59,664 nt of DNA. It comes from an uncultured Bacilli bacterium (GTDB taxonomy: Bacteria; Bacillota_I; Bacilli_A; RF39; UBA660). The notes under the pieces are model-generated. The model did no database searches, was not told the origin of the DNA, and was given only the letters and a program-made list of their open reading frames with translations. Position numbers and translations under genes: made by a program. Location of the stretch: NCBI GenBank assembly GCA_944358775.1, contig CALVRU010000004.1:1-59664 (forward strand), given 5' to 3'. Below are positions 2,296 to 28,131 of the stretch, piece after piece; positions within the stretch are counted from its first letter, which is position 1; each line of letters starts with the position of its first letter.

Positions 2296-2982
2296 ATGGC
2301 AAGGATCAAAAAGAAAAAAACACGTTTGCGAGTGGGACCGGTTTTGATAGTAATCATTTTATTGTCTTTTCTAGGTTGCGGTATTTATTATTTGCTCGGT
2401 ATGAAAATCGAAAATATTATTATCTTGGGAAATGAACATGTCAGTGACGAAAAAATCATTGAAGAAGCGGGCCTTACGGACTATCCGAGTTTCTATTGGA
2501 CAAGTTCCGGAAGTATTAAACGTAAAGTTCTAGCGGATCCGTTGATTGAAAAAGTGACGGTAAAAAAGAAATTCTTTCATGTGATCGAAATAACGGTACA
2601 AGAGTACAAAATGTTATATAAACAGGCGAGTGACAATAAAGTAGTCTTAAGTGATGGTAGTATTTTAATGACGGATGAAAACATTCCCTATCTGCCAGTT
2701 TTGTTAAATTATGTACCGGATACCAAACAAGAAGCTTTTCACGAGGGAATGAACAATATCAAGGATGATATTCGTAATCAAATTTCGGAAATTACATATG
2801 ATCCGAATGACTATGATAAAGATCGTTTTCTTTTACTAATGGATGATGGAAATAGTGTTTATTTGACTTTAACAAAGTTCGATATGATCAATTACTACGA
2901 TGAAGTGTTACCACAATTAGAAGGGAAAAAAGGAATTTTATATTTGGATTCTGGAAATCATTTTCAGATTATGGAATCTTAA
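2296..2982 (+). CDS. divIB: Cell division protein FtsQ/DivIB
   Basis: Basic N-terminus, single TM, POTRA-like segment (IIILGNEHVSDEKII...IEKVTVKK), dcw position after murB. Confidence 0.85.
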   Translation: MARIKKKKTRLRVGPVLIVIILLSFLGCGIYYLLGMKIENIIILGNEHVSDEKIIEEAGLTDYPSFYWTSSGSIKRKVLADPLIEKVTVKKKFFHVIEITVQEYKMLYKQASDNKVVLSDGSILMTDENIPYLPVLLNYVPDTKQEAFHEGMNNIKDDIRNQISEITYDPNDYDKDRFLLLMDDGNSVYLTLTKFDMINYYDEVLPQLEGKKGILYLDSGNHFQIMES

Positions 2983-3067
2983 AGTAGAGTGGTTATTTCG
3001 AATATATTTTAAGTTTTCATAATGTGAGATACAATAATAAATAGGATAATAATGGAGTGATCATTGA

Positions 3068-4821
3068 ATGAAGAAAAAGGGAAAATGGAAAGTACAGTTT
3101 TTGGTTATGGCATTTTGTGTACTTGGACTAGTCGCTGTATTGGTAGGAAGTAGTTATGCCATTTTCTCGGATGTCAGTGATCAAGGAGATTATAATACGG
3201 TGACCGCGGGAACTCTTCAGTTGTCGTATAAGACACCCAGTCACTTAGTTTAAATAATTTATATCCGGTCTCGGATGTGGAAGGAATGACCGGAGAAGGG
3301 TATACCTTTACGGTTCGTAATATTGGAACACTACCAAGTGATTATAAAGTGATGATTCAAGATGATAGTGCGATGATCCAAGCGGATGGTTGTAGTGATC
3401 ATTTAATGCCGAAAGCAAATATTAAAATTAGTATTGATGGAGGAACTCCTTTTTTATTAAGTAGCATTGAAGGAAGTAATTATATGATTACGACGGGCAA
3501 CTTACAACCAGGGGAAAGTGTAACACATGTTGTCAGAGCCTGGATCGATGAAGCAAGTGGAAACGAAATATTAGGAACGCACTTTCACGGGAAAGTAGTA
3601 GTAGAAGGAGTGCAAGGAGAGTTTGTCTATCGTGATGAAAGTGGAGCGAATCCGCCGAAGTTAGTAGAAGGAATGATACCAGTTACATATAATGGAACGA
3701 ACTGGGTCAAAGCAGATGTATATAATGAATGGTACGATTATAATAATCAAGAGTGGGCGAATGCGGTGACGGTAACGGAGGAGAATCGGGCAACTTATAT
3801 GAGTGCTTCTGCAGGGACCGTAATACCAATGGACGATATCAATACAATGTGGGTCTGGCTACCAAGATATGAATATCAATATGCCAATTTAGGAACTCAA
3901 TATGCAGGTGGCACCCAGGATCTTCCAGGAGAAATCAAAATAAACTTCTTAAGTGGAATAAATACGACTCCAAGTGACGCTGCCAATTACAAAGTACATC
4001 CGGCTTTTACGTTTGGAAGTGAAGAATTAACCGGAATCTGGGTTGGCAAATTTGAAACAGGTGGAACTTTAGCAAGTGCTTGTACGAATGAAAGTTGTGA
4101 TATTTCAAATATAGTAATTAAACCAAATGTAAAAATTCTAAATTATCAGAATGTGAGCACATATTTTTATTCGGCTCGAAGTATGCAAATGAATAGTAGT
4201 AATCCATATGGATTTCGTAGTACTTCAGGAAATGTTCACATGAGCAAAAATAGTGAATGGAGTGCCATTGCCTATTTATCCCAAAGTAGATATGGGAAAT
4301 ATGGAAATTCCAAATATACTGGTGCTGACAAAGAAATCGCAATCAACAATTGTAGTAGTTTTATTACGGGAATTGGCGGTGACACGGTGAGTGCCGCGCC
4401 ATCGAGTACTTCTTGTACTACAAATACTTACACGACAGCGAAAGGACAAGCTGCCAGTACGACGGGAAATATTACGGGAATTTACGATATTTCTGGCGCA
4501 GGAGCAGAAACAGTAATGGGAAACTATAATAATCCAATTGGCTCATCCGGTTTTTCTACTATGCCAGAAACTCAATATTATGATCTTTATACCACGACGA
4601 ATTTATCGACGGCGTGTAATGGTGGAGTATGTTATGGGCATGCGTTGAGTGAAACTTCTACTTGGTACAAAGATGCTTCTGTTCTTATAAGTAGTTCAAA
4701 TCCGTGGATCATGCGGGGTGGGGGTGTGACTACGACAAGGCCTGGTACGGGAGCATTCTACATTTCTTATGACGCTGGACCTGGCATTGGCGTAAATTGC
4801 CGTATCATTGTAACGCCATAA
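3068..4821 (+). pseudogene. Frameshifted secreted surface protein: TasA/SipW-type leader, TasA-like domain and C-terminal CLec/DGR-target-like domain (ORFs 3068-3253 and 3277-4821 are one gene)
   Basis: ORF1 ends ...GSSYAIFSD...NTVTAGTLQLSY. The frame of ORF2 is open upstream as DTQSLSLNNLYPVSDVEG from 3232. One base is missing at 3230-3231 (tat aa gac); total 1754 nt = 585 codons minus 1. The C-terminus has PW..RGG...G.F...R. Confidence 0.75.
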
Positions 4822-4856
4822 TATAATATTTTTTAAGAGCGAAACGTCCAAAAATT

Positions 4857-6192: not shown

Positions 6193-7326
6193 ATGTTGGA
6201 TAACACACTAGAAATGGATCAATTAGCAAAGATAAAAGTAATCGGTGTCGGTGGCGGCGGCGGAAATGCTGTAAATCGAATGGTCGAATCAGGAATTCAA
6301 GGAGTCGAGTTCATTGTTGCTAATACAGATTTACAAGTATTAAATAATTCAAAAGCAGATGTAAAAATTCAAATCGGGGCATCTTTGACCGACGGATTAG
6401 GAGCTGGTGCAAAACCGGAAATCGGAAAAGAAGCGGCAGTTGAGAGCAAAAAAGAAATCGAAGATGCTTTAGCAGGTGCCGACATGGTTTTCCTTACTTG
6501 TGGAATGGGTGGTGGAACTGGTACGGGAGCTGCACCGGTTATTGCCGAAATTGCTCAGAACCTTGGTGCTTTGACGGTGGCAATTGTAACCAAGCCTTTC
6601 AGCTTTGAAGGAAAGAAAAGAATGGAAAACGCACTTGCTGGATTAGAAGAATTAAAGAAACATGTCGATACATTGATCGTCATTCCAAATGATCGACTAC
6701 GCGAAATTATCGATAAGACGACCCCGATGTTAGATGCATTTAAAGAAGTAGATAATGTATTGAGACGTGGTGTTCAATCGATTTCCGATTTAATTGCAAT
6801 TGTCGGACTTGTCAACCTTGACTTTGCCGATGTTAAAGCAGTCATGGAGAAATCTGGTAATGCCATTATCGGTATTGGTATTGGAATGGGTGAAGATCGG
6901 GCGATCGAAGCGGCCAAACAAGCAGTTACTTCACCACTTCTCGAAACGAGTATTCAAGGAGCAACCGATGCCATTATCAATATTACCGGTGGCGTTAATT
7001 TAACATTGTTTGAAGCAGAACAAGCAGCAGAAGTCGTAAGAGCAGCTGCGAATACAGATATCAATACGATCTTTGGTTCGGTAATCAATGAAAACTTAAC
7101 AGACGAAGTAATCGTAACCGTAATTGCTACGGGTTTTGATAAAAAGAAAGAAGTAAAAGAGCCTCTTTATAACAATGTTCAAAATACAAGACGAAGTGCT
7201 CCACGTGATATCGAAGTGATCGATACACCACAGCCTACGCCAATTCCAGTAATGAGCAGTGATGATGACGACGATGATGATGGAGACTATGATATCCCAT
7301 CATTCCTAAAGAAAAGAAATTATTAA
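6193..7326 (+). CDS. ftsZ: Cell division protein FtsZ
   Basis: [20 protein letters not shown] tubulin signature, DIPSFL C-terminal core. Confidence 0.99.
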
Positions 7327-19682: not shown

Positions 19683-21088
19683 TGCCAAAACGTAGTTTAC
19701 GAGAAGAATTTGAACTCGATCAAGAGAAACGAGATCCGATCAAAATTATCTCTGATTATGATATTTTTAAAGATAAAGCATTATTAGATAAATTACGGTC
19801 GAACATTATTCAAAACATCATCGACAATAAAGTGCCGGAAGAGAAACTACTAACCGAATACATTAATGAAGAAATCGACAAGACTTTGGAAGGATACGAT
19901 CTTACTAATTTAGAACGTAGTCACATTTTTAATTTGATTGATAATGAAATCAACGGATACGGTCCTATTACAGAGCTATTAGATGATAAAAATGTGACCG
20001 AAATCATGGTCAATGGACCAGAAGAGATTTACATTGAAATTGATGGTCACGTAATGAAAGATGATACCGTATCTTTTATCAATGCCGATCATATTTTAAG
20101 AACGATCCAAAGAATGGTTCAACCATTAGGCCGAACGATCGATCAAGCAAATCCGATGGTCGATTCGAGATTGCCGGATGGTTCCAGAATTAATGCGATT
20201 ATTCCGCCGCTCAGTTTAAATGGACCAGTACTTACGATCCGGAAATTTAAGGATAGTATGAACGATATTGAGTCATTGATTCGAAATGGTACGTTGACGC
20301 CTTATATGGCCCGTTTTTTAGAGGCATGTGTTCATGCCAAATTAAATATGATTGTCTGTGGTGGTACCGGTAGTGGTAAAACGACACTTTTGAATATTCT
20401 GTCTAGTTTTATCGGTGAAGATGAGCGTATTATTACGATTGAAGATGCTGCCGAATTACGTTTGCATCAAAAACACGTCATCACTTTGGAAACACGGAAT
20501 ATGAATTATGAAAGTGGTGGCGAAGTGACGATTCGAGATCTTGTCATCAACTCATTGCGAATGCGACCAGACCGGATCATCGTCGGCGAAGTCCGTGGCA
20601 AAGAGGCATTCGATATGCTACAGGCAATGAATACAGGACATGAAGGAAGCTTAACAACCCTTCATGCGAACAGTCCGATCGATGCTCTAAACCGTTTGGA
20701 AACAATGGTTTTAATGAGTGGATTAGAAATTCCGATCCGTGCGATTCGGGAATATATAGAAAATGCCATCGATATTGTCGTAAATATCGAACGATTGGGC
20801 GACGGTCGTAGAAAAGTAACGAGCATTTGTGAAGTGATCGGCTTTCAAGGAGATGCCATTCGTTTAAAGGAAATCTTTGCTTTTAAAGAACACGGCTTAA
20901 CTTCGACCGGGGAAGTAAATGGCGAGTTCATATTATATAATTATATTCCAGAAAGTTATAAGAAGATGAAAGCCAAAGGAGTAAATTCGGTTGACGATAT
21001 TTTCGATGAAGTGAAAAAAATATTAGACAAAAAAGCAAAATTAGAAGAAAAGAAAAAGAAAGCAAAACCGGTCAAAGAAAAGAAATAG
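19682..21088 (+). CDS. cpaF: Tad pilus assembly ATPase CpaF/TadA
   Basis: [47 protein letters not shown]. Confidence 0.95.
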
Positions 21089-21106
21089 AAAGAGGGTGAA
21101 GCGAAT

Positions 21107-22117
21107 ATGCCAGAAGGATACAATATTTCTTTGTTTATCTTGCAAATTATCATTATTTTTATCCTATTTGCCATTATGATATGGCTTTTAAAACTAGTAC
21201 GGGCAATTCGCTATGAAAAACGAATTAGTAAATACACGATTGATTCGATTAAAGAAGATTCTCTTTCTTTTTTCGATCGGGTAAATATCGCTTATTTTGA
21301 GATTTGTCATAGATTATCAAAGGCTTTGAAAAAAATTCGAATTTTTGATACGTACAGTAAAAAGTATGAGAAATATATCGATGGTTCGAAACAGATTCGG
21401 GAAGAAGCGATGGATTATATTTCAACCAAAATTCTATGTGGTATTTTAGTATTTTTGATTGTATTGGTATCCGATGTCCTTCAATATAAACCGATCTCGT
21501 TGATTCAAGTGATCTATTCCTTATTGATTGGTTTTTTCTTACCAGACTTATTCTTGATTTCTCGTAACCAATTCCGAAAGAGACAAATTGAAAACGATTT
21601 ATTAAAATCGATTATTATCATGAATAACGCATTTAAATCGGGTCGCAGTACGATGCAGGCAATTCAAATTGTATCGGAGGAACTCGACGGACCATTAGCG
21701 GGTGAATTCAAAAAAATGTATATCGACTTGACTTATGGTCTCAGCTTGGAAACGGTATTCACGCGGTTTGCAAAGCGAGTAAATATCGAAGAAGTGAAGT
21801 ATATTACAACCTCTTTGACGATTTTAAATAAAACAGGCGGCGATATTGTAAAAGTGTTTTCGTCGATTGAACGATCTTTCTTCAATCGGCGCAAGTTACA
21901 ACAAGAGTTGAAATCTTTGACGGCTTCCGCTCGGCTTATTTTTAATATTTTGGTAGTATTACCGTTTGTTTTATTTTTGATGATCTTTATCTTAAATCCA
22001 ACCTATTTTAATCCGTTATTTACAACGCCGATTGGGCTTGTCATCTTACTTGTTATCGTCTTATTGTATACGACATATATTTTTATCATCCGACGGATTA
22101 TGAAAGTCGAAGAGTAA
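21107..22117 (+). CDS. tadB: TadB-like platform protein (T2SS F domain)
   Basis: NAFKSG...GPLAGEF...GGDIV pattern, C-terminal TMs. Confidence 0.85.
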   Translation: MPEGYNISLFILQIIIIFILFAIMIWLLKLVRAIRYEKRISKYTIDSIKEDSLSFFDRVNIAYFEICHRLSKALKKIRIFDTYSKKYEKYIDGSKQIREEAMDYISTKILCGILVFLIVLVSDVLQYKPISLIQVIYSLLIGFFLPDLFLISRNQFRKRQIENDLLKSIIIMNNAFKSGRSTMQAIQIVSEELDGPLAGEFKKMYIDLTYGLSLETVFTRFAKRVNIEEVKYITTSLTILNKTGGDIVKVFSSIERSFFNRRKLQQELKSLTASARLIFNILVVLPFVLFLMIFILNPTYFNPLFTTPIGLVILLVIVLLYTTYIFIIRRIMKVEE

Positions 22118-22129
22118 AGGGGGATATGC

Positions 22130-22837
22130 ATGGCTAAGAAAAAAATAGAAGTATCGCGAAAAATTTATAGTCAAAAGAGTATCGATAAGATGCAAGCAAG
22201 AATCGATTTGCTCGGTTATCGGGAAAGTTATAGTGCGATTATTTTCTTAAATATTCGTCTTCTTTCTTCCACTTTTCTCTTTTTTATGATATTATATCTA
22301 TTCGAATGGGGATATGTTTTAGCACCTTTAATTACGTTTCTTTATTATATTTTTCTACCTAAGATTGCGATTGACCAAAAGGTGGCCAAAAGAGGATCGC
22401 GGCTAGATAAAGAAGCAATGTATTTTTTCGAAGTATTAACGTTATCGTTAGAGTCGGGAAGAAATTTACAAAGTGCTTTAGAAGTAACAGCTTCGAATAT
22501 CGATTCGGAATTATCGAGTGAATTTAAACAAACCTTAGAAGAAGTTCGTTTTGGTAAAAGTCTCAACGAAGCATTGGATGATTTAAAAAGACGAATTCCT
22601 TCCGATACAATTAACAATATTATTTTAAATATTTCCCAGTCGAATATTTTTGGTAATAGTATTATTGATACGTTATATAATCAAATCGATTATATTCGAG
22701 ATAAAAAAGTGATGGAAACACGGGCGAAGATGAGCAAAATACCGATTCAGATCAGTGTGGTATCGGTTATCTTCTTTATTCCAATTTTGTTATTGTTAAT
22801 TTTATCGCCAGTAATCATCAGTTATATTGTAGGATAG
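22130..22837 (+). CDS. tadC: TadC-like platform protein (T2SS F domain)
   Basis: LSLESGRNL...EVRFGKSL...FG pattern, C-terminal TM. Confidence 0.85.
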   Translation: MAKKKIEVSRKIYSQKSIDKMQARIDLLGYRESYSAIIFLNIRLLSSTFLFFMILYLFEWGYVLAPLITFLYYIFLPKIAIDQKVAKRGSRLDKEAMYFFEVLTLSLESGRNLQSALEVTASNIDSELSSEFKQTLEEVRFGKSLNEALDDLKRRIPSDTINNIILNISQSNIFGNSIIDTLYNQIDYIRDKKVMETRAKMSKIPIQISVVSVIFFIPILLLLILSPVIISYIVG

Positions 22838-22847
22838 GAGGATTTTT

Positions 22848-26429: not shown

Positions 26430-26481
26430 TATGTCAAAAAATGGAAATAACTTCCAGTGAAAGAAGTAATTTATCTGTGAT

Positions 26482-26516
26482 AAAATGGAAAGAGAATAGA
26501 ACCTCTTTCCGTTTTT
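26482..26516 (+). terminator. Intrinsic terminator
   Basis: AAAATGGAAAGAG-aatagaac-CTCTTTCCGTTTT. Confidence 0.7.
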
Positions 26517-26537: not shown

Positions 26538-26987
26538 TTGGGAGTTTACGATATGTCTGCTGGAGCAGGTGAATATGTGATGGGGGTACTTGCTGATTCA
26601 AGCGGAGCACCAAGAAGTGGGAATAGCGACTCAAGGAATTCTGGATTCAATGGAACGTTAGAAAATGGAAGTAAATATAGTTCAGGAATTGCTTTTCCAG
26701 AAGCCAAGTATTATGATTTATATACTTCAATGAACCAAAGCTCCAATGATGATAGTTTAAGCGCTACGGCATGCAGTGGAGGAATTTGTTATGGACATGG
26801 GTTAAGTGAGACTGCAGGATGGTATCAAGATTATTCCGTTTTTGTTAGTCAAACTATGCCTTGGGTTCTCCGCGGCGGTGGCTGTTCTAGTAGCCCGCCG
26901 ATTGCTGGCATCTTCTACGCCGGCCACAACTACGGTTACACGGACAGCAACGTCGCGTCTCGTGCTGTGTTGGTCCCAGGAGCGTAG
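26538..26987 (+). pseudogene. Orphan C-terminal cassette of a CLec/DGR-target-like surface protein, paralogous to the 3' end of 3277-4821
   Basis: Shares G(I/V)YD(I/M)S, E.VMG, PE..YYDLYT, TAC.GG.CYGH.LSET..WY.D and PW..RGGG with the upstream gene. No leader; similarity begins abruptly at ~26538. Confidence 0.75.
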
Positions 26988-26990
26988 CGA
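26868..26990 (+). other. DGR variable-region (VR)-like segment
   Basis: 29 codons at 26868-26954: 19 end in C, 7 in T, 3 in G, none in A; 54/87 G+C. This is the pattern expected from adenine-specific mutagenesis of AAC/AAT template codons. Confidence 0.7.
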
Positions 26991-27082
26991 TTTATTTCAT
27001 TTCATCAAAGTGATGGAAATAATATTATGATAAGAGGGAACTGATCAATTGTAATTGTGCTGTAATGCAAAATAGAAAAAAG

Positions 27083-27121
27083 AAAAGAGGAATTTCGGAA
27101 AAGATAAGAAATTCTTCTTTT
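27083..27121 (+). terminator. Intrinsic terminator
   Basis: AAAAGAGGAATTTC-loop-GAAATTCTTCTTTT. Confidence 0.7.
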
Positions 27122-27189
27122 GTTTTGAAGAAATTGCGATTTGTAAAAGAATTCTAGTTTTGTTAAAGTGCTTCCTGGAGGTGATTTGG

Positions 27190-28092
27190 TTGAGCCAAGT
27201 CGAAGTAGAAGAAGTACTTACGAAAATTAAAAAGAAGGAAGCCGTCATTCCTGGAACATGGGATCCTGTCTTTAAAACGATTTTAATGGAGTGTCCGAAC
27301 TATCTATCGGATATTATTTATCAAGTCACGAAGATACCGAAAGAATATATTGAAGCAAATCTCGTCTTTAAAAATACTGAGTATCCGATTGATTCGTTTG
27401 ATGAAAAGAAACGAATCAGTGATGTTGTCGTCGAAATAAAGGAAAACCATATTATTTTAGAAATGAATGCGCATTACTATGAAGGACTGATGGATAAAAA
27501 TTTGTCTTATGTCGAGAAATTAAGTAGTATAACGATGAAAATAGGAGCAGAATATCCACGCCGAGAGAAGATCATCGAAATCAATTTTGATGTCGAACGA
27601 AATCGATCATTTCCAGAAAGTGAGAAGACTATCTATGAGTTTGGACTCTATGAGAAAGAAGAACACTTTTTATACAGTGAACATATTACGATCTATCATA
27701 TCGATCTAGAAAAAATCAGGAAGAAGTATTATAATAAAGACAAAGAGATAGATCGGTTTGAGAAAGAGATGCTGTTACTAATGGAGACAGATAAAGAAGT
27801 ATTAAGCGAACTATCGAAAGGAGATGAGACGATGGAAGAAGCGAAGAGGAAGCTAGAGGACTTATCGAATGGAGAGTTATTTACGGAATACGAAAGAGAA
27901 CAAATGAAGGAAGCGGAAGAGCGAGCGATCAAGCGATACGAATTAAAGATGGCACGAGAAGAAGGAAAAGAAGAAGGACTGGAACAAGGGAAATTAGAGA
28001 CAGCGAAGAAGATGAAAGAACAAGGGATCGATTGGAATATCATCGCTGTTTGTACGGACTTATCTCTGAAGGAAATCGAAGAGATCAAATAA
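27190..28092 (+). CDS. Rpn/PD-(D/E)XK nuclease family protein ('PD-(D/E)XK transposase')
   Basis: D.VFK, SDVVVE...ILEMN nuclease core, REEGKEEGLEQGK repeat, TAKKM...IAVCTDLS tail. TTG 27190 follows GGAGGTG. Confidence 0.88.
   Translation: MSQVEVEEVLTKIKKKEAVIPGTWDPVFKTILMECPNYLSDIIYQVTKIPKEYIEANLVFKNTEYPIDSFDEKKRISDVVVEIKENHIILEMNAHYYEGLMDKNLSYVEKLSSITMKIGAEYPRREKIIEINFDVERNRSFPESEKTIYEFGLYEKEEHFLYSEHITIYHIDLEKIRKKYYNKDKEIDRFEKEMLLLMETDKEVLSELSKGDETMEEAKRKLEDLSNGELFTEYEREQMKEAEERAIKRYELKMAREEGKEEGLEQGKLETAKKMKEQGIDWNIIAVCTDLSLKEIEEIK
27832..28092 (+). CDS. Putative in-frame small C-terminal product (RpnS-type antitoxin, 86 aa)
   Basis: Internal SD AAAGGAG at 27817-27823, 8 nt before in-frame ATG 27832 (MEEAKRKL...). 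Confidence 0.55.
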   Translation: MEEAKRKLEDLSNGELFTEYEREQMKEAEERAIKRYELKMAREEGKEEGLEQGKLETAKKMKEQGIDWNIIAVCTDLSLKEIEEIK

Positions 28093-28131
28093 GATTTCTT
28101 CTTTTTCTTTGACATGATATAATAAAAGAGA

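What the first reader, a model, noticed from the sequence alone, without database searches (positions are those of the whole stretch)
26538..26990. Orphan cassette ending in a fresh DGR variable region, with no RT or template repeat in the window
The ORF uses ordinary A/T-ending codons until PWVLRGG, then switches abruptly: of 29 codons (26868-26954) 19 end in C, 7 in T, 3 in G and none in A, including nine consecutive NNC codons (ggc atc ttc tac gcc ggc cac aac tac), with 62% G+C in an AT-rich genome. This is what adenine-specific mutagenic retrohoming of AAC/AAT codons leaves behind. Back-substitution predicts a template reading roughly RGGNYNNN..NAGIFNANNNNGN.NNN..SR. The cassette lacks the leader and stalk of its paralog at 3277-4821. 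It could still be expressed from ATG 26553 (GGGAG 8 nt upstream; TGaTAAAAT at 26478-26486), or be a silent donor or deletion scar.
Basis: partly seen in the sequence, partly recalled or inferred. Interest (0 to 1): 0.85.

Follow-up and report, generated by a model that had tools for sequence, protein, structure and literature searches.

The report
Fossil DGR variable region, truncated gene
The G+C-rich tail of this small ORF is very probably the footprint of a diversity-generating retroelement, but it sits in a truncated, decaying gene copy and no longer varies between strains, so it is a fossil and not an active hypermutation site.

Summary
Positions 26857-26980 are the G+C maximum of the whole window (62-63% against 35%). 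In the 29 codons at 26868-26954, 19 end in C and none in A.

The DGR reading is supported at family level. The ORF is a 5'-truncated copy of a surface-protein family that is hugely expanded in uncultured gut Bacilli. In relatives this family sits in canonical DGR cassettes (target, TR, MutS-like gene, bAvd, RT). In those relatives the TR-VR mismatches fall at TR adenines. Their VRs show the same G+C-rich, A-poor footprint.

"Fresh" is not supported. In five independent assemblies and 15 protein variants the VR is invariant except for one A/G site. Some alleles carry a frameshift, a 145-nt deletion that removes the VR, or loss of a conserved Trp. An active relative changes 20-23 of 138 VR bases between samples whose RT region is 99% identical.

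No RT, Avd, MutS-like gene or TR lies in the window or in any fetched locus of this species. No cognate TR was found in the public collections.

Verdict: a fossil or orphan VR in a pseudogene remnant; a new member of a known kind.

The parts
26538..26987 (+). 5'-truncated copy of a surface-protein family gene. It is 149 aa from TTG 26538 and 144 aa from ATG 26553. It holds only the C-terminal part of the FGE-sulfatase/C-type-lectin-like domain.
   Evidence: ORF list. Alignment to 21 homologs and to the paralog. Relatives are 568-632 aa with an N-terminal membrane anchor. Population alleles include a frameshift, a VR deletion and W->L.
26866..26985 (+). Fossil DGR variable region: G+C 63%, A 13-14%, NNC codons, ending in GGAGCGTAG.
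   Evidence: Composition. The same non-A skeleton occurs in L004/L113 with 21 differences, 17 of them at codon positions 1-2. The footprint matches VRs of proven DGRs in relatives. It is invariant across samples except 26910 A/G.
26487..26510 (.). Hairpin GGAAAGAG(A)..(C)CTCTTTCC followed by a T-run. It is terminator-like on both strands and marks the 5' junction of the truncated unit.
   Evidence: Terminator scan. DNA fold -9.3 kcal/mol, z -4.8. The 26-mer 26483-26508 is shared with the truncated copy at another locus, L113/L115.
26457..26486 (+). Promoter-like site (GTGAAA, 18 nt, TAAAAT, with TG). It lies upstream of the hairpin, so read-through into the ORF is doubtful.
   Evidence: This is a consensus match only.
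26992..27021 (+). Weak A+T-rich hairpin 5 nt (four intervening bases) after the stop codon (26985-26987). It is not comparable with the strong 4-nt-loop hairpin behind active VRs.
   Evidence: DNA fold -5.3 kcal/mol, z -1.7. The hairpin behind the L106 VR gives -11 kcal/mol, z -7.2.
27063..28110 (+). PD-(D/E)XK family 'transposase' gene (ORF 27160-28092) with its upstream region. In another genome the same unit, 97% identical, follows a full-length family gene.
   Evidence: Pfam PF12784, E 2e-12. blastn to L112 12068-13115 at 97%. L112 gene order.
3068..4821 (+). Full-length paralog, frameshifted at about 3230-3250 (leader ORF 3068-3253, body 3277-4821). Its VR-equivalent is 4705-4818 (G+C 53%). 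It lies in a strain-variable 1.87-kb insertion between ftsQ and ftsA.
   Evidence: P0162 reads through the frameshift site. The insertion is absent from L120 and six other strains with an identical FtsZ, and has a different N-terminal module in L119/L121.

Best explanation
Positions 26866-26985 are a variable region written in the past by a diversity-generating retroelement of the TR / MutS-like / bAvd / RT type found in related gut Bacilli. In such an element an error-prone reverse transcriptase copies a template repeat rich in AAC codons. It misincorporates at template adenines, and the cDNA replaces the 3' end of the target gene. The invariant template positions avoid adenine and are G+C-rich. 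Half of the mutated adenines become G or C. The product is therefore a G+C-rich, A-poor, NNC-codon patch in an A+T-rich genome.

The gene that carried this VR later lost its leader, stalk and the first half of its ligand-binding domain. What remains is a remnant of about 450 nt next to a PD-(D/E)XK transposase-like gene. The remnant is no longer rewritten. Its VR is fixed in the population and the locus is accumulating inactivating mutations.

Shown here: the composition anomaly, the homology to proven DGR targets, the truncation, the invariance and the broken alleles. Inferred: that this particular VR came from adenine mutagenesis (its own TR was not found), and that the truncated ORF has no function.
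For: (1) The anomaly is unique in the window.
(2) The family tail is hypervariable on a conserved scaffold.
(3) Four VRs within one MAG share an invariant non-A skeleton, with variable sites 17/14/8 at codon positions 1/2/3, against 14/10/20 in the adjacent scaffold. Window against L004 gives 9/8/4 in the VR and 5/4/12 in the scaffold.
(4) L105 carries a canonical DGR: a 622-aa family target, a TR, bAvd (PF22296, 1e-21) and an RT (RVT_1, 2e-18; Brt E 1.6e-45).
(5) L106-108 carry an active DGR. They have 15-22 TR/VR mismatches, 82-100% of them at TR adenines. Their VRs differ at 20-23 of 138 positions between samples with 99% identical RT regions. VR G+C is 0.54-0.57 and A 0.14-0.17, against TR 0.49 and 0.27 and locus G+C 0.28.
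(6) L116, from a rabbit-gut Bacilli MAG, has target, TR, Avd and RT in order.
(7) The cassette VR is invariant but for 26910 A/G in the window, L002, L003 and L088 and in 15 protein variants. L088 has a 1-nt deletion at 26824. L087 lacks 26819-26963. Four variants have W->L in the conserved PW motif.
(8) L112 has a full-length gene at the equivalent position, upstream of the same PD-(D/E)XK gene.
Against: No TR matching this VR was found in the window, in any fetched locus, or by skeleton-pattern scans of the viral, genome and metagenome collections. Adenine-specificity is therefore not shown for this VR itself.

No RT, Avd or MutS-like gene was found in the window or in about 1.5 Mb of fetched loci outside the DGR loci themselves. 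The rest of this species' genome could not be read.

The same truncated unit, with the same 5' hairpin junction, is kept at a second locus in other assemblies (L113-115). That is unexpected for a random scar.

The C-type lectin fold could not be confirmed. Both structure models were poor (pLDDT 39 and 34). Only 2 of 20 family members reach Pfam FGE-sulfatase at E<=0.1.
Confidence: 0.7

Rival explanations
1. It is an active remote target. A DGR elsewhere in the genome still rewrites this VR in trans, and the 144-aa product from ATG 26553 is expressed.
For: Remote targets are known for DGRs (stated in PMC5758913 and PMC8144416). An RBS-like GGGAG lies 8 nt before ATG 26553 and a promoter-like site is at 26457-26486. 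The VR has not drifted toward the genome's A+T-rich composition. Stand-alone TR units detached from any RT exist in a related MAG, L070.
Against: The VR is invariant in five assemblies and 15 protein variants whose flanks differ. An active relative changes 15% of VR bases at 99% flank identity. Frameshift and VR-deletion alleles are tolerated. There is no strong hairpin behind the VR. A terminator-like hairpin sits between the promoter-like site and the ORF. The product would lack the anchor and half of the domain.
Confidence: 0.08
2. It is a silent donor cassette. Truncated, promoterless copies store DGR-written VRs, and recombination moves them into expressed full-length paralogs. This would resemble pseudogene reservoirs for antigenic variation. 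The adjacent PD-(D/E)XK gene might help.
For: The same truncated unit with the same 5' hairpin junction lies at two different loci, the window and L113-115 upstream of recD2. P0161 combines the window-type scaffold with the other type's VR. Family genes are mosaics: the first 1 kb of P0162 is 85% identical in DNA to the window paralog (about 93-95% at the protein level) but carries a cassette-like C-terminus, and L119 has another N-terminal module on the same body. A PD-(D/E)XK gene 97% identical follows a family gene in two contexts. L004/L113 keep an older A+T-rich VR tail right after the new stop codon, as if the G+C-rich VR had been pasted in.
Against: Alleles that delete the VR or frameshift the unit are common, and a conserved Trp is lost in 4 of 15 variants. 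P0161 is on a 902-bp metagenome contig and may be a chimeric assembly. No transfer from this cassette into an expressed gene was seen. No role of the PD-(D/E)XK gene was tested.
Confidence: 0.1
3. The patch has nothing to do with a DGR. It would be a fragment acquired from a G+C-rich donor, or the product of G+C-biased gene conversion among many paralogs.
For: No cognate TR or RT was found. The family recombines. VR G+C across about 100 copies ranges continuously from 0.34 to 0.66.
Against: The patch starts exactly at the RGG motif where the TRs of relatives start, and ends at the stop codon. Third positions are fixed while positions 1-2 vary. Proven TRs in 28-29% G+C genomes already have 49-51% G+C and give 54-57% G+C VRs. 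Relatives' TRs carry AAC at the variable positions.
Confidence: 0.05

Closest known systems
DGRs with a MutS-like (MSL) accessory gene plus Avd: 'architecture D' of Wu et al. 2018 (PMC5758913), which includes the Legionella DGR
   Same: The relatives that diversify this protein family (L106-111) have TR, a MutS_I-domain gene, bAvd and an RT. Mutagenesis is adenine-specific and a hairpin follows the VR.
   Different: The window has none of these genes. It holds only a VR-like patch in a truncated target. L106/L107 carry two tandem TR copies, and L070 has TR units with their own promoter and terminator away from any RT.
Treponema denticola TvpA DGR, with several related target genes scattered over the genome (as summarised in PMC5758913)
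   Same: One element with multiple dispersed paralogous targets. The VR is at the C-terminal end of an FGE-sulfatase/C-type-lectin-type domain of a surface protein.
   Different: Here the family is far larger, with at least 21 loci of one MAG among the best 80 of 337 matches. The window copy is truncated and not diversified.
Bordetella phage BPP-1 Mtd/TR/Avd/Brt
   Same: The RT of L105 matches Brt (E 1.6e-45, 33% identity). The VR lies at the 3' end of the target. A hairpin with a 4-nt loop follows active VRs.
   Different: The elements here are chromosomal, not phage-borne. There is no sequence similarity between this family and Mtd.
Silent pseudogene cassettes for antigenic variation in Mollicutes (MgPa repeats, vlhA pseudogenes; from general knowledge, not tested here)
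   Same: Truncated, promoterless copies of the variable part of a surface protein, present at more than one locus in reduced-genome Bacilli relatives.
   Different: No donor-to-expression-site transfer was shown here. The variable part bears a DGR footprint and not ordinary paralog divergence.

Membership tests
Diversity-generating retroelement (as a complete system) | A reverse transcriptase of the DGR clade is present | tested here: not met
   tblastn and phmmer with BPP-1 Brt and with the L105 and L106 RTs find nothing in the window or in any locus of the window's species.
Diversity-generating retroelement (as a complete system) | A template repeat matching the VR except at TR adenines | tested here: not met
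   The adenine-tolerant scan of the window finds only poly-A-like sequence. Skeleton patterns found nothing in the viral, genome or metagenome collections. No A-specific pair was found among 105 VR-like segments.
Diversity-generating retroelement (as a complete system) | An accessory gene (Avd, HRDC or MSL) next to the RT | tested here: not met
   No Avd or MSL homolog is in the window. Both are present in relatives L105, L106-111 and L116.
DGR target gene / variable region | Homology to targets of demonstrated DGRs | tested here: met
   tblastn of the cassette against the targets in L105 (E 2e-22, 43%) and L106-108 (E 1e-15 to 8e-20). L116 has the target next to TR, Avd and RT.
DGR target gene / variable region | The VR lies at the C-terminal end of the ORF and is A-depleted, with variation confined to codon positions 1-2 of former AAY codons | tested here: met
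   The VR is the last 40 codons, with A 0.13-0.14 and NNC codons. Window against L004 gives 17 of 21 differences at positions 1-2, against 9 of 21 in the scaffold.
DGR target gene / variable region | The VR is hypervariable between strains or within populations (activity) | tested here: not met
   One variable site in 120 nt over four assemblies and 15 protein variants. The positive control shows 20-23 of 138.
DGR target gene / variable region | G+C-rich IMH at the VR 3' end, followed by a stable hairpin with a 4-nt loop | tested here: inconclusive
   The G+C-rich end GTCCCAGGAGCGTAG is conserved in relatives. Only a weak A+T-rich hairpin follows (z -1.7), against z -7.2 in L106.
DGR target gene / variable region | The VR is displayed on a C-type lectin / FGE-sulfatase fold | tested here: inconclusive
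   Pfam FGE-sulfatase hits P0018 (25.2 bits, cutoff 23.3), L064 (21.6) and L105 (14.2), but not the window proteins. AlphaFold models were poor (pLDDT 39 and 34). No PDB sequence match.
Intact, expressed gene | Complete domain architecture, own promoter and purifying selection | tested here: not met
   It lacks about 430-480 N-terminal residues present in relatives. A hairpin lies between the promoter-like site and the ORF. Frameshift, deletion and W->L alleles occur.

The most novel reading that the evidence does not exclude
In these reduced-genome gut Bacilli, DGR mutagenesis may be coupled to a cassette system. VRs written by the retroelement would be archived as short, promoterless 3' gene fragments, bounded by a conserved 5' hairpin and ending at the VR. 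Recombination among the many mosaic paralogs would then move them, possibly aided by the adjacent PD-(D/E)XK transposase-like gene. The window's ORF would be one such archived cassette and not mere debris.
Probability: 0.1. Interest if true: 0.7.

Novelty: new member of a known kind. Interest (0 to 1): 0.35.

Why it matters
The result shows that composition alone (a G+C-rich, A-poor, NNC-codon patch at the end of an ORF in an A+T-rich genome) can flag DGR-written DNA when RT and TR are far away or lost. Contig-based surveys state that they miss this situation (PMC8144416).

The result also shows how to separate a fossil from an active target without reads. One compares the patch across independent assemblies and uses an active relative as a control.

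The wider context may be more interesting than the cassette itself. Uncultured gut Bacilli carry dozens of mosaic paralogs of one DGR-target family. Some have duplicated or free-standing TR transcription units.

Tried and rejected
- Adenine-tolerant scan of the window for a TR: only A-rich noise at about 46.8 kb.
- VR-skeleton pattern TCCGCGGYGGT..TG..GG....TTC..GGT....CG..C: no hit in viral, genome or metagenome collections, not even the VR itself.
- One viral scan was wasted on a mistyped reverse complement. The corrected pattern gave 13 chance hits in G+C-rich phage contigs.
- A strict regex for DGR RT motifs in 85 loci found nothing. tblastn and phmmer with Brt also found nothing.
- All-against-all search for A-specific TR/VR pairs among 105 VR-like segments found none.
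- Structure prediction of the cassette and of the paralog's C-terminal 254 aa gave pLDDT 39 and 34, unusable, so no fold search was run.
- PDB sequence searches with the family profile and with P0018 gave no hits. hhalign against Mtd gave no similarity.
- I guessed that window ORFs at 48-53 kb were orthologs of L113 genes, to date the divergence. That was wrong; the proteins are unrelated.
- The idea that the L112 gene after the PD-(D/E)XK gene is AddB, as in the window, was rejected.
- The paralog's 3' end (4705-4818) was considered as a template for the cassette VR and rejected: too many non-A mismatches.

Full report
**1. The observation**

The ORF is 26538-26987 on the + strand. It is 149 aa from TTG 26538 and 144 aa from ATG 26553.

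Its first 110 codons end in T48, A34, G16, C12. The 29 codons at 26868-26954 end in C19, T7, G3, A0. Fisher tests give P=8e-9 for C and P=1.5e-4 for A.

An 87-nt sliding scan puts the G+C maximum of the whole 59.7-kb window (0.632; mean 0.354, sd 0.062) at 26870. The only stretch reaching 0.62 is 26857-26980. In 8086 sliding runs of 29 codons from 14 long ORFs, the largest count of C-ending codons is 11.

**2. What the ORF is**

The window is chromosomal: murG, murB, ftsQ, ftsA, ftsZ, ftsK, a Tad-pilus cluster and addBA.

The ORF aligns with the C-terminal 140-150 residues of a protein family. Full-length members are 568-632 aa, with an N-terminal membrane anchor and a long stalk.

Homology begins at NLGVYDMS (about 26532). 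An in-frame stop lies at 26481, and the sequence upstream is unrelated to the family. The ORF is therefore a 5'-truncated copy.

Pfam finds nothing in the window proteins. Some family members do reach FGE-sulfatase, the C-type-lectin-like fold typical of DGR targets. P0018 scores 25.2 bits against a cutoff of 23.3, and L064 and L105 score lower.

A protein-pattern scan of one genome per species found 337 relatives. Nearly all are in MAGs titled 'uncultured Bacilli bacterium', from rabbit and human gut. At least 21 loci from a single MAG appear among the best 80 matches.

**3. Is the tail a DGR variable region?**

Across about 100 copies the scaffold keeps 0.35-0.41 G+C. The last 40 or so codons range from 0.34 to 0.66 G+C and are hypervariable in protein sequence.

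Within one MAG, four VRs share an invariant, almost A-free skeleton (CGC GGC GGC nnC TnT ... GTG TTC nnC TTC nAC nnC ... TCG TTC CGC CTA GTG CTC). Variable sites number 17/14/8 at codon positions 1/2/3, against 14/10/20 in the adjacent scaffold.

The window VR and its closest relative (L004/L113, 80% protein identity) behave the same way. They have 21 differences, distributed 9/8/4 by codon position, against 5/4/12 in the scaffold.

A skeleton pattern then found L105 in a metagenome. L105 is a 7.8-kb contig of 29% G+C. It carries a 622-aa family member and a non-coding TR translating to LRGGNYNNNTNAGVFNFNASNN..SFRLVM. It also carries a bAvd gene (PF22296, E 1e-21) and an RT (RVT_1, E 2e-18; BPP-1 Brt E 1.6e-45; LPIGNYTSQFFAN and YMDD motifs).

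Homologs of that RT led to L106-108. These are three samples with an identical RT. They hold two tandem TRs, a MutS_I-domain gene, bAvd and RT, and an 1108-aa target on the other strand.

In L106-108 the TR and VR differ at 15-22 positions, and 82-100% of these are TR adenines. The three VRs differ from one another at 20-23 of 138 positions, although the RT region is 99% identical. The TR has G+C 0.49 and A 0.27. The VRs have G+C 0.54-0.57 and A 0.14-0.17. The locus has G+C 0.28. A 13-bp hairpin with a 4-nt loop follows the stop codon (z -7.2).

L109-111 and L116, a rabbit-gut MAG from the same project as the expanded genomes, show the same cassette type.

This architecture (MSL plus Avd) is already described as 'architecture D' (PMC5758913).

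The mechanism explains the composition. The TR avoids A wherever the protein must stay constant, so it uses C-, G- and T-rich codons. It uses AAC where variation is wanted. Mutagenesis then turns about half of those A's into G or C.

**4. Is it fresh or active?**

It is not.

The same locus was recovered from four other assemblies: L002 (a 109-kb contig), L003, L087 and L088. In the window, L002, L003 and L088 the 120-nt VR has one variable site (26910 A/G, Ile/Val). The rest of the cassette and the flanks carry several differences.

L088 has a 1-nt deletion at 26824, which frameshifts the ORF upstream of the VR. L087 lacks 26819-26963, which is the VR itself, and also lacks 18 nt upstream.

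The 90%-identity cluster holds 25 members. The 15 listed variants all have the identical tail CSSSPPIAG(I/V)FYAGHNYGYTDSNVASRAVLVPGA. Changes elsewhere include W->L in the nearly invariant PW motif in four variants. There are also calls starting at a later Met or fused to the upstream ORF, which point to further indels.

The L004/L113-type VR is likewise fixed among six members.

Set against the active control in L106-108, this is a frozen VR in a decaying locus. The hairpin behind it is weak (z -1.7). A strong terminator-like hairpin (26487-26510, z -4.8) lies between the only promoter-like site and the ORF.

**5. RT and TR**

None is in the window. None is in the loci of this species, which together extend a few kb beyond the window. 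None is in the flanks of 80 family loci.

Patterns built from the VR skeleton found nothing in the three public collections. The VR itself was not found either, so this species' cassette is simply not in those collections.

Whether the genome still has a DGR is therefore open. This is the main gap in the analysis.

**6. History of the remnant**

In L112 a full-length family gene (P0162) sits directly upstream of a PD-(D/E)XK transposase-like gene. That gene is 97% identical to window 27063-28110, although the surrounding genes differ. The window cassette thus looks like the 3' remnant of such a gene.

The same truncated unit also occurs upstream of recD2 in L113-115, at 82% nucleotide identity. 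It includes the 26-nt hairpin junction at its 5' end. At that same locus L004 has a full-length version.

L004 and L113 keep an older A+T-rich VR tail (GIFYSGNSNGSANKYYTSRFALGL) immediately after the stop codon of the G+C-rich VR.

Family genes are mosaics of exchangeable modules.

These facts leave room for a recombination-based cassette role, which I rate as unlikely but not excluded.

**7. Comparison and verdict**

The thing works, or worked, like a DGR target VR. As a system it fails the membership tests for RT, TR and accessory gene within the data at hand, and it fails the test for present-day hypervariability. It is best filed as an orphan or fossil VR of a known DGR type, in a pseudogene remnant.

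Contig-based DGR surveys acknowledge that they miss remote or orphan VRs (PMC8144416). Interest is modest for the cassette itself. It is higher for the family context: dozens of paralogs per genome, duplicated TRs, and free-standing TR units.

Noticed in passing
window 2978-4848 (paralog 3068-4821): The paralog between ftsQ and ftsA lies in a strain-variable 1.87-kb insertion. Seven assemblies with an identical FtsZ have ftsQ directly followed by ftsA. Two others have an intact 568-aa gene with a different N-terminal module. In the window the gene is frameshifted near 3230-3250: leader ORF 3068-3253, body from 3277.
   Followed up: yes
window 27063-28110; L112 12068-13115: The PD-(D/E)XK family transposase-like gene (PF12784) with its upstream region is 97% identical in a genome whose neighbouring genes are unrelated. 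In both places it directly follows the 3' end of a family gene, so it looks mobile or recently exchanged.
   Followed up: partly
window 26483-26510; L113 about 6293-6320; L115 about 3775-3800: A 26-nt sequence forming a 9-bp hairpin (GGAAAGAGA..CCTCTTTCC) marks the 5' end of the truncated cassette at two different genomic loci. Why the same junction occurs twice is unexplained.
   Followed up: partly
L070 10420-10700 and 15290-15570: Two free-standing TR units in a rabbit-gut MAG. Each has a TTGACA/TATACT-type promoter, a conserved leader (AATAGACGACAAACGGTGAT), an Asn-codon-rich TR, a conserved 3' hairpin and a terminator-like hairpin. No RT lies within 5 kb. The flanks are homologous to the TR next to Avd-RT in L116.
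   Followed up: partly
L106 8465-8584 and 8863-8982; L107 8463-8582 and 8862-8981: Two tandem TR copies lie upstream of MSL-Avd-RT. In L107 the two TRs differ at several positions (AAC/GCC, AGA/AAC). One sample's VR fits TR1 better, so the TRs themselves vary between samples.
   Followed up: partly
L004 1095-1170; L113 about 6795-6870: An A+T-rich partial VR (GIFYSGNSNGSANKYYTSRFALGL*) lies immediately after the stop codon of the G+C-rich VR. It looks as if a complete G+C-rich VR with its own stop had been pasted into an older gene end.
   Followed up: no
Genome-contig loci L006-L085: The family is massively expanded. There are 337 matches, and single MAGs contribute 21 (CANQIE01), 16 (CANRHM01) and 13 (CANQDB01) of the best 80 loci. 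Some loci hold 2-3 tandem copies (L025, L038, L078).
   Followed up: partly
P0161 (902-bp ENA contig): This protein has the window-type scaffold but the L004/L113-type C-terminus from FISQTIPW onward. It is either a real recombinant between the two cassette types or a chimeric assembly.
   Followed up: no
window about 17900-22840: A Tad/Flp pilus gene cluster: Flp, TadE, ParA-like, CpaF-type ATPase and two T2SSF genes. It was identified through the Pfam labels of the syntenic L002.
   Followed up: no
L058 10313-11941: One family member continues about 500 aa beyond the VR-like segment into repeats rich in Thr, Ser and Cys, so the VR-like segment is internal and not C-terminal.
   Followed up: no
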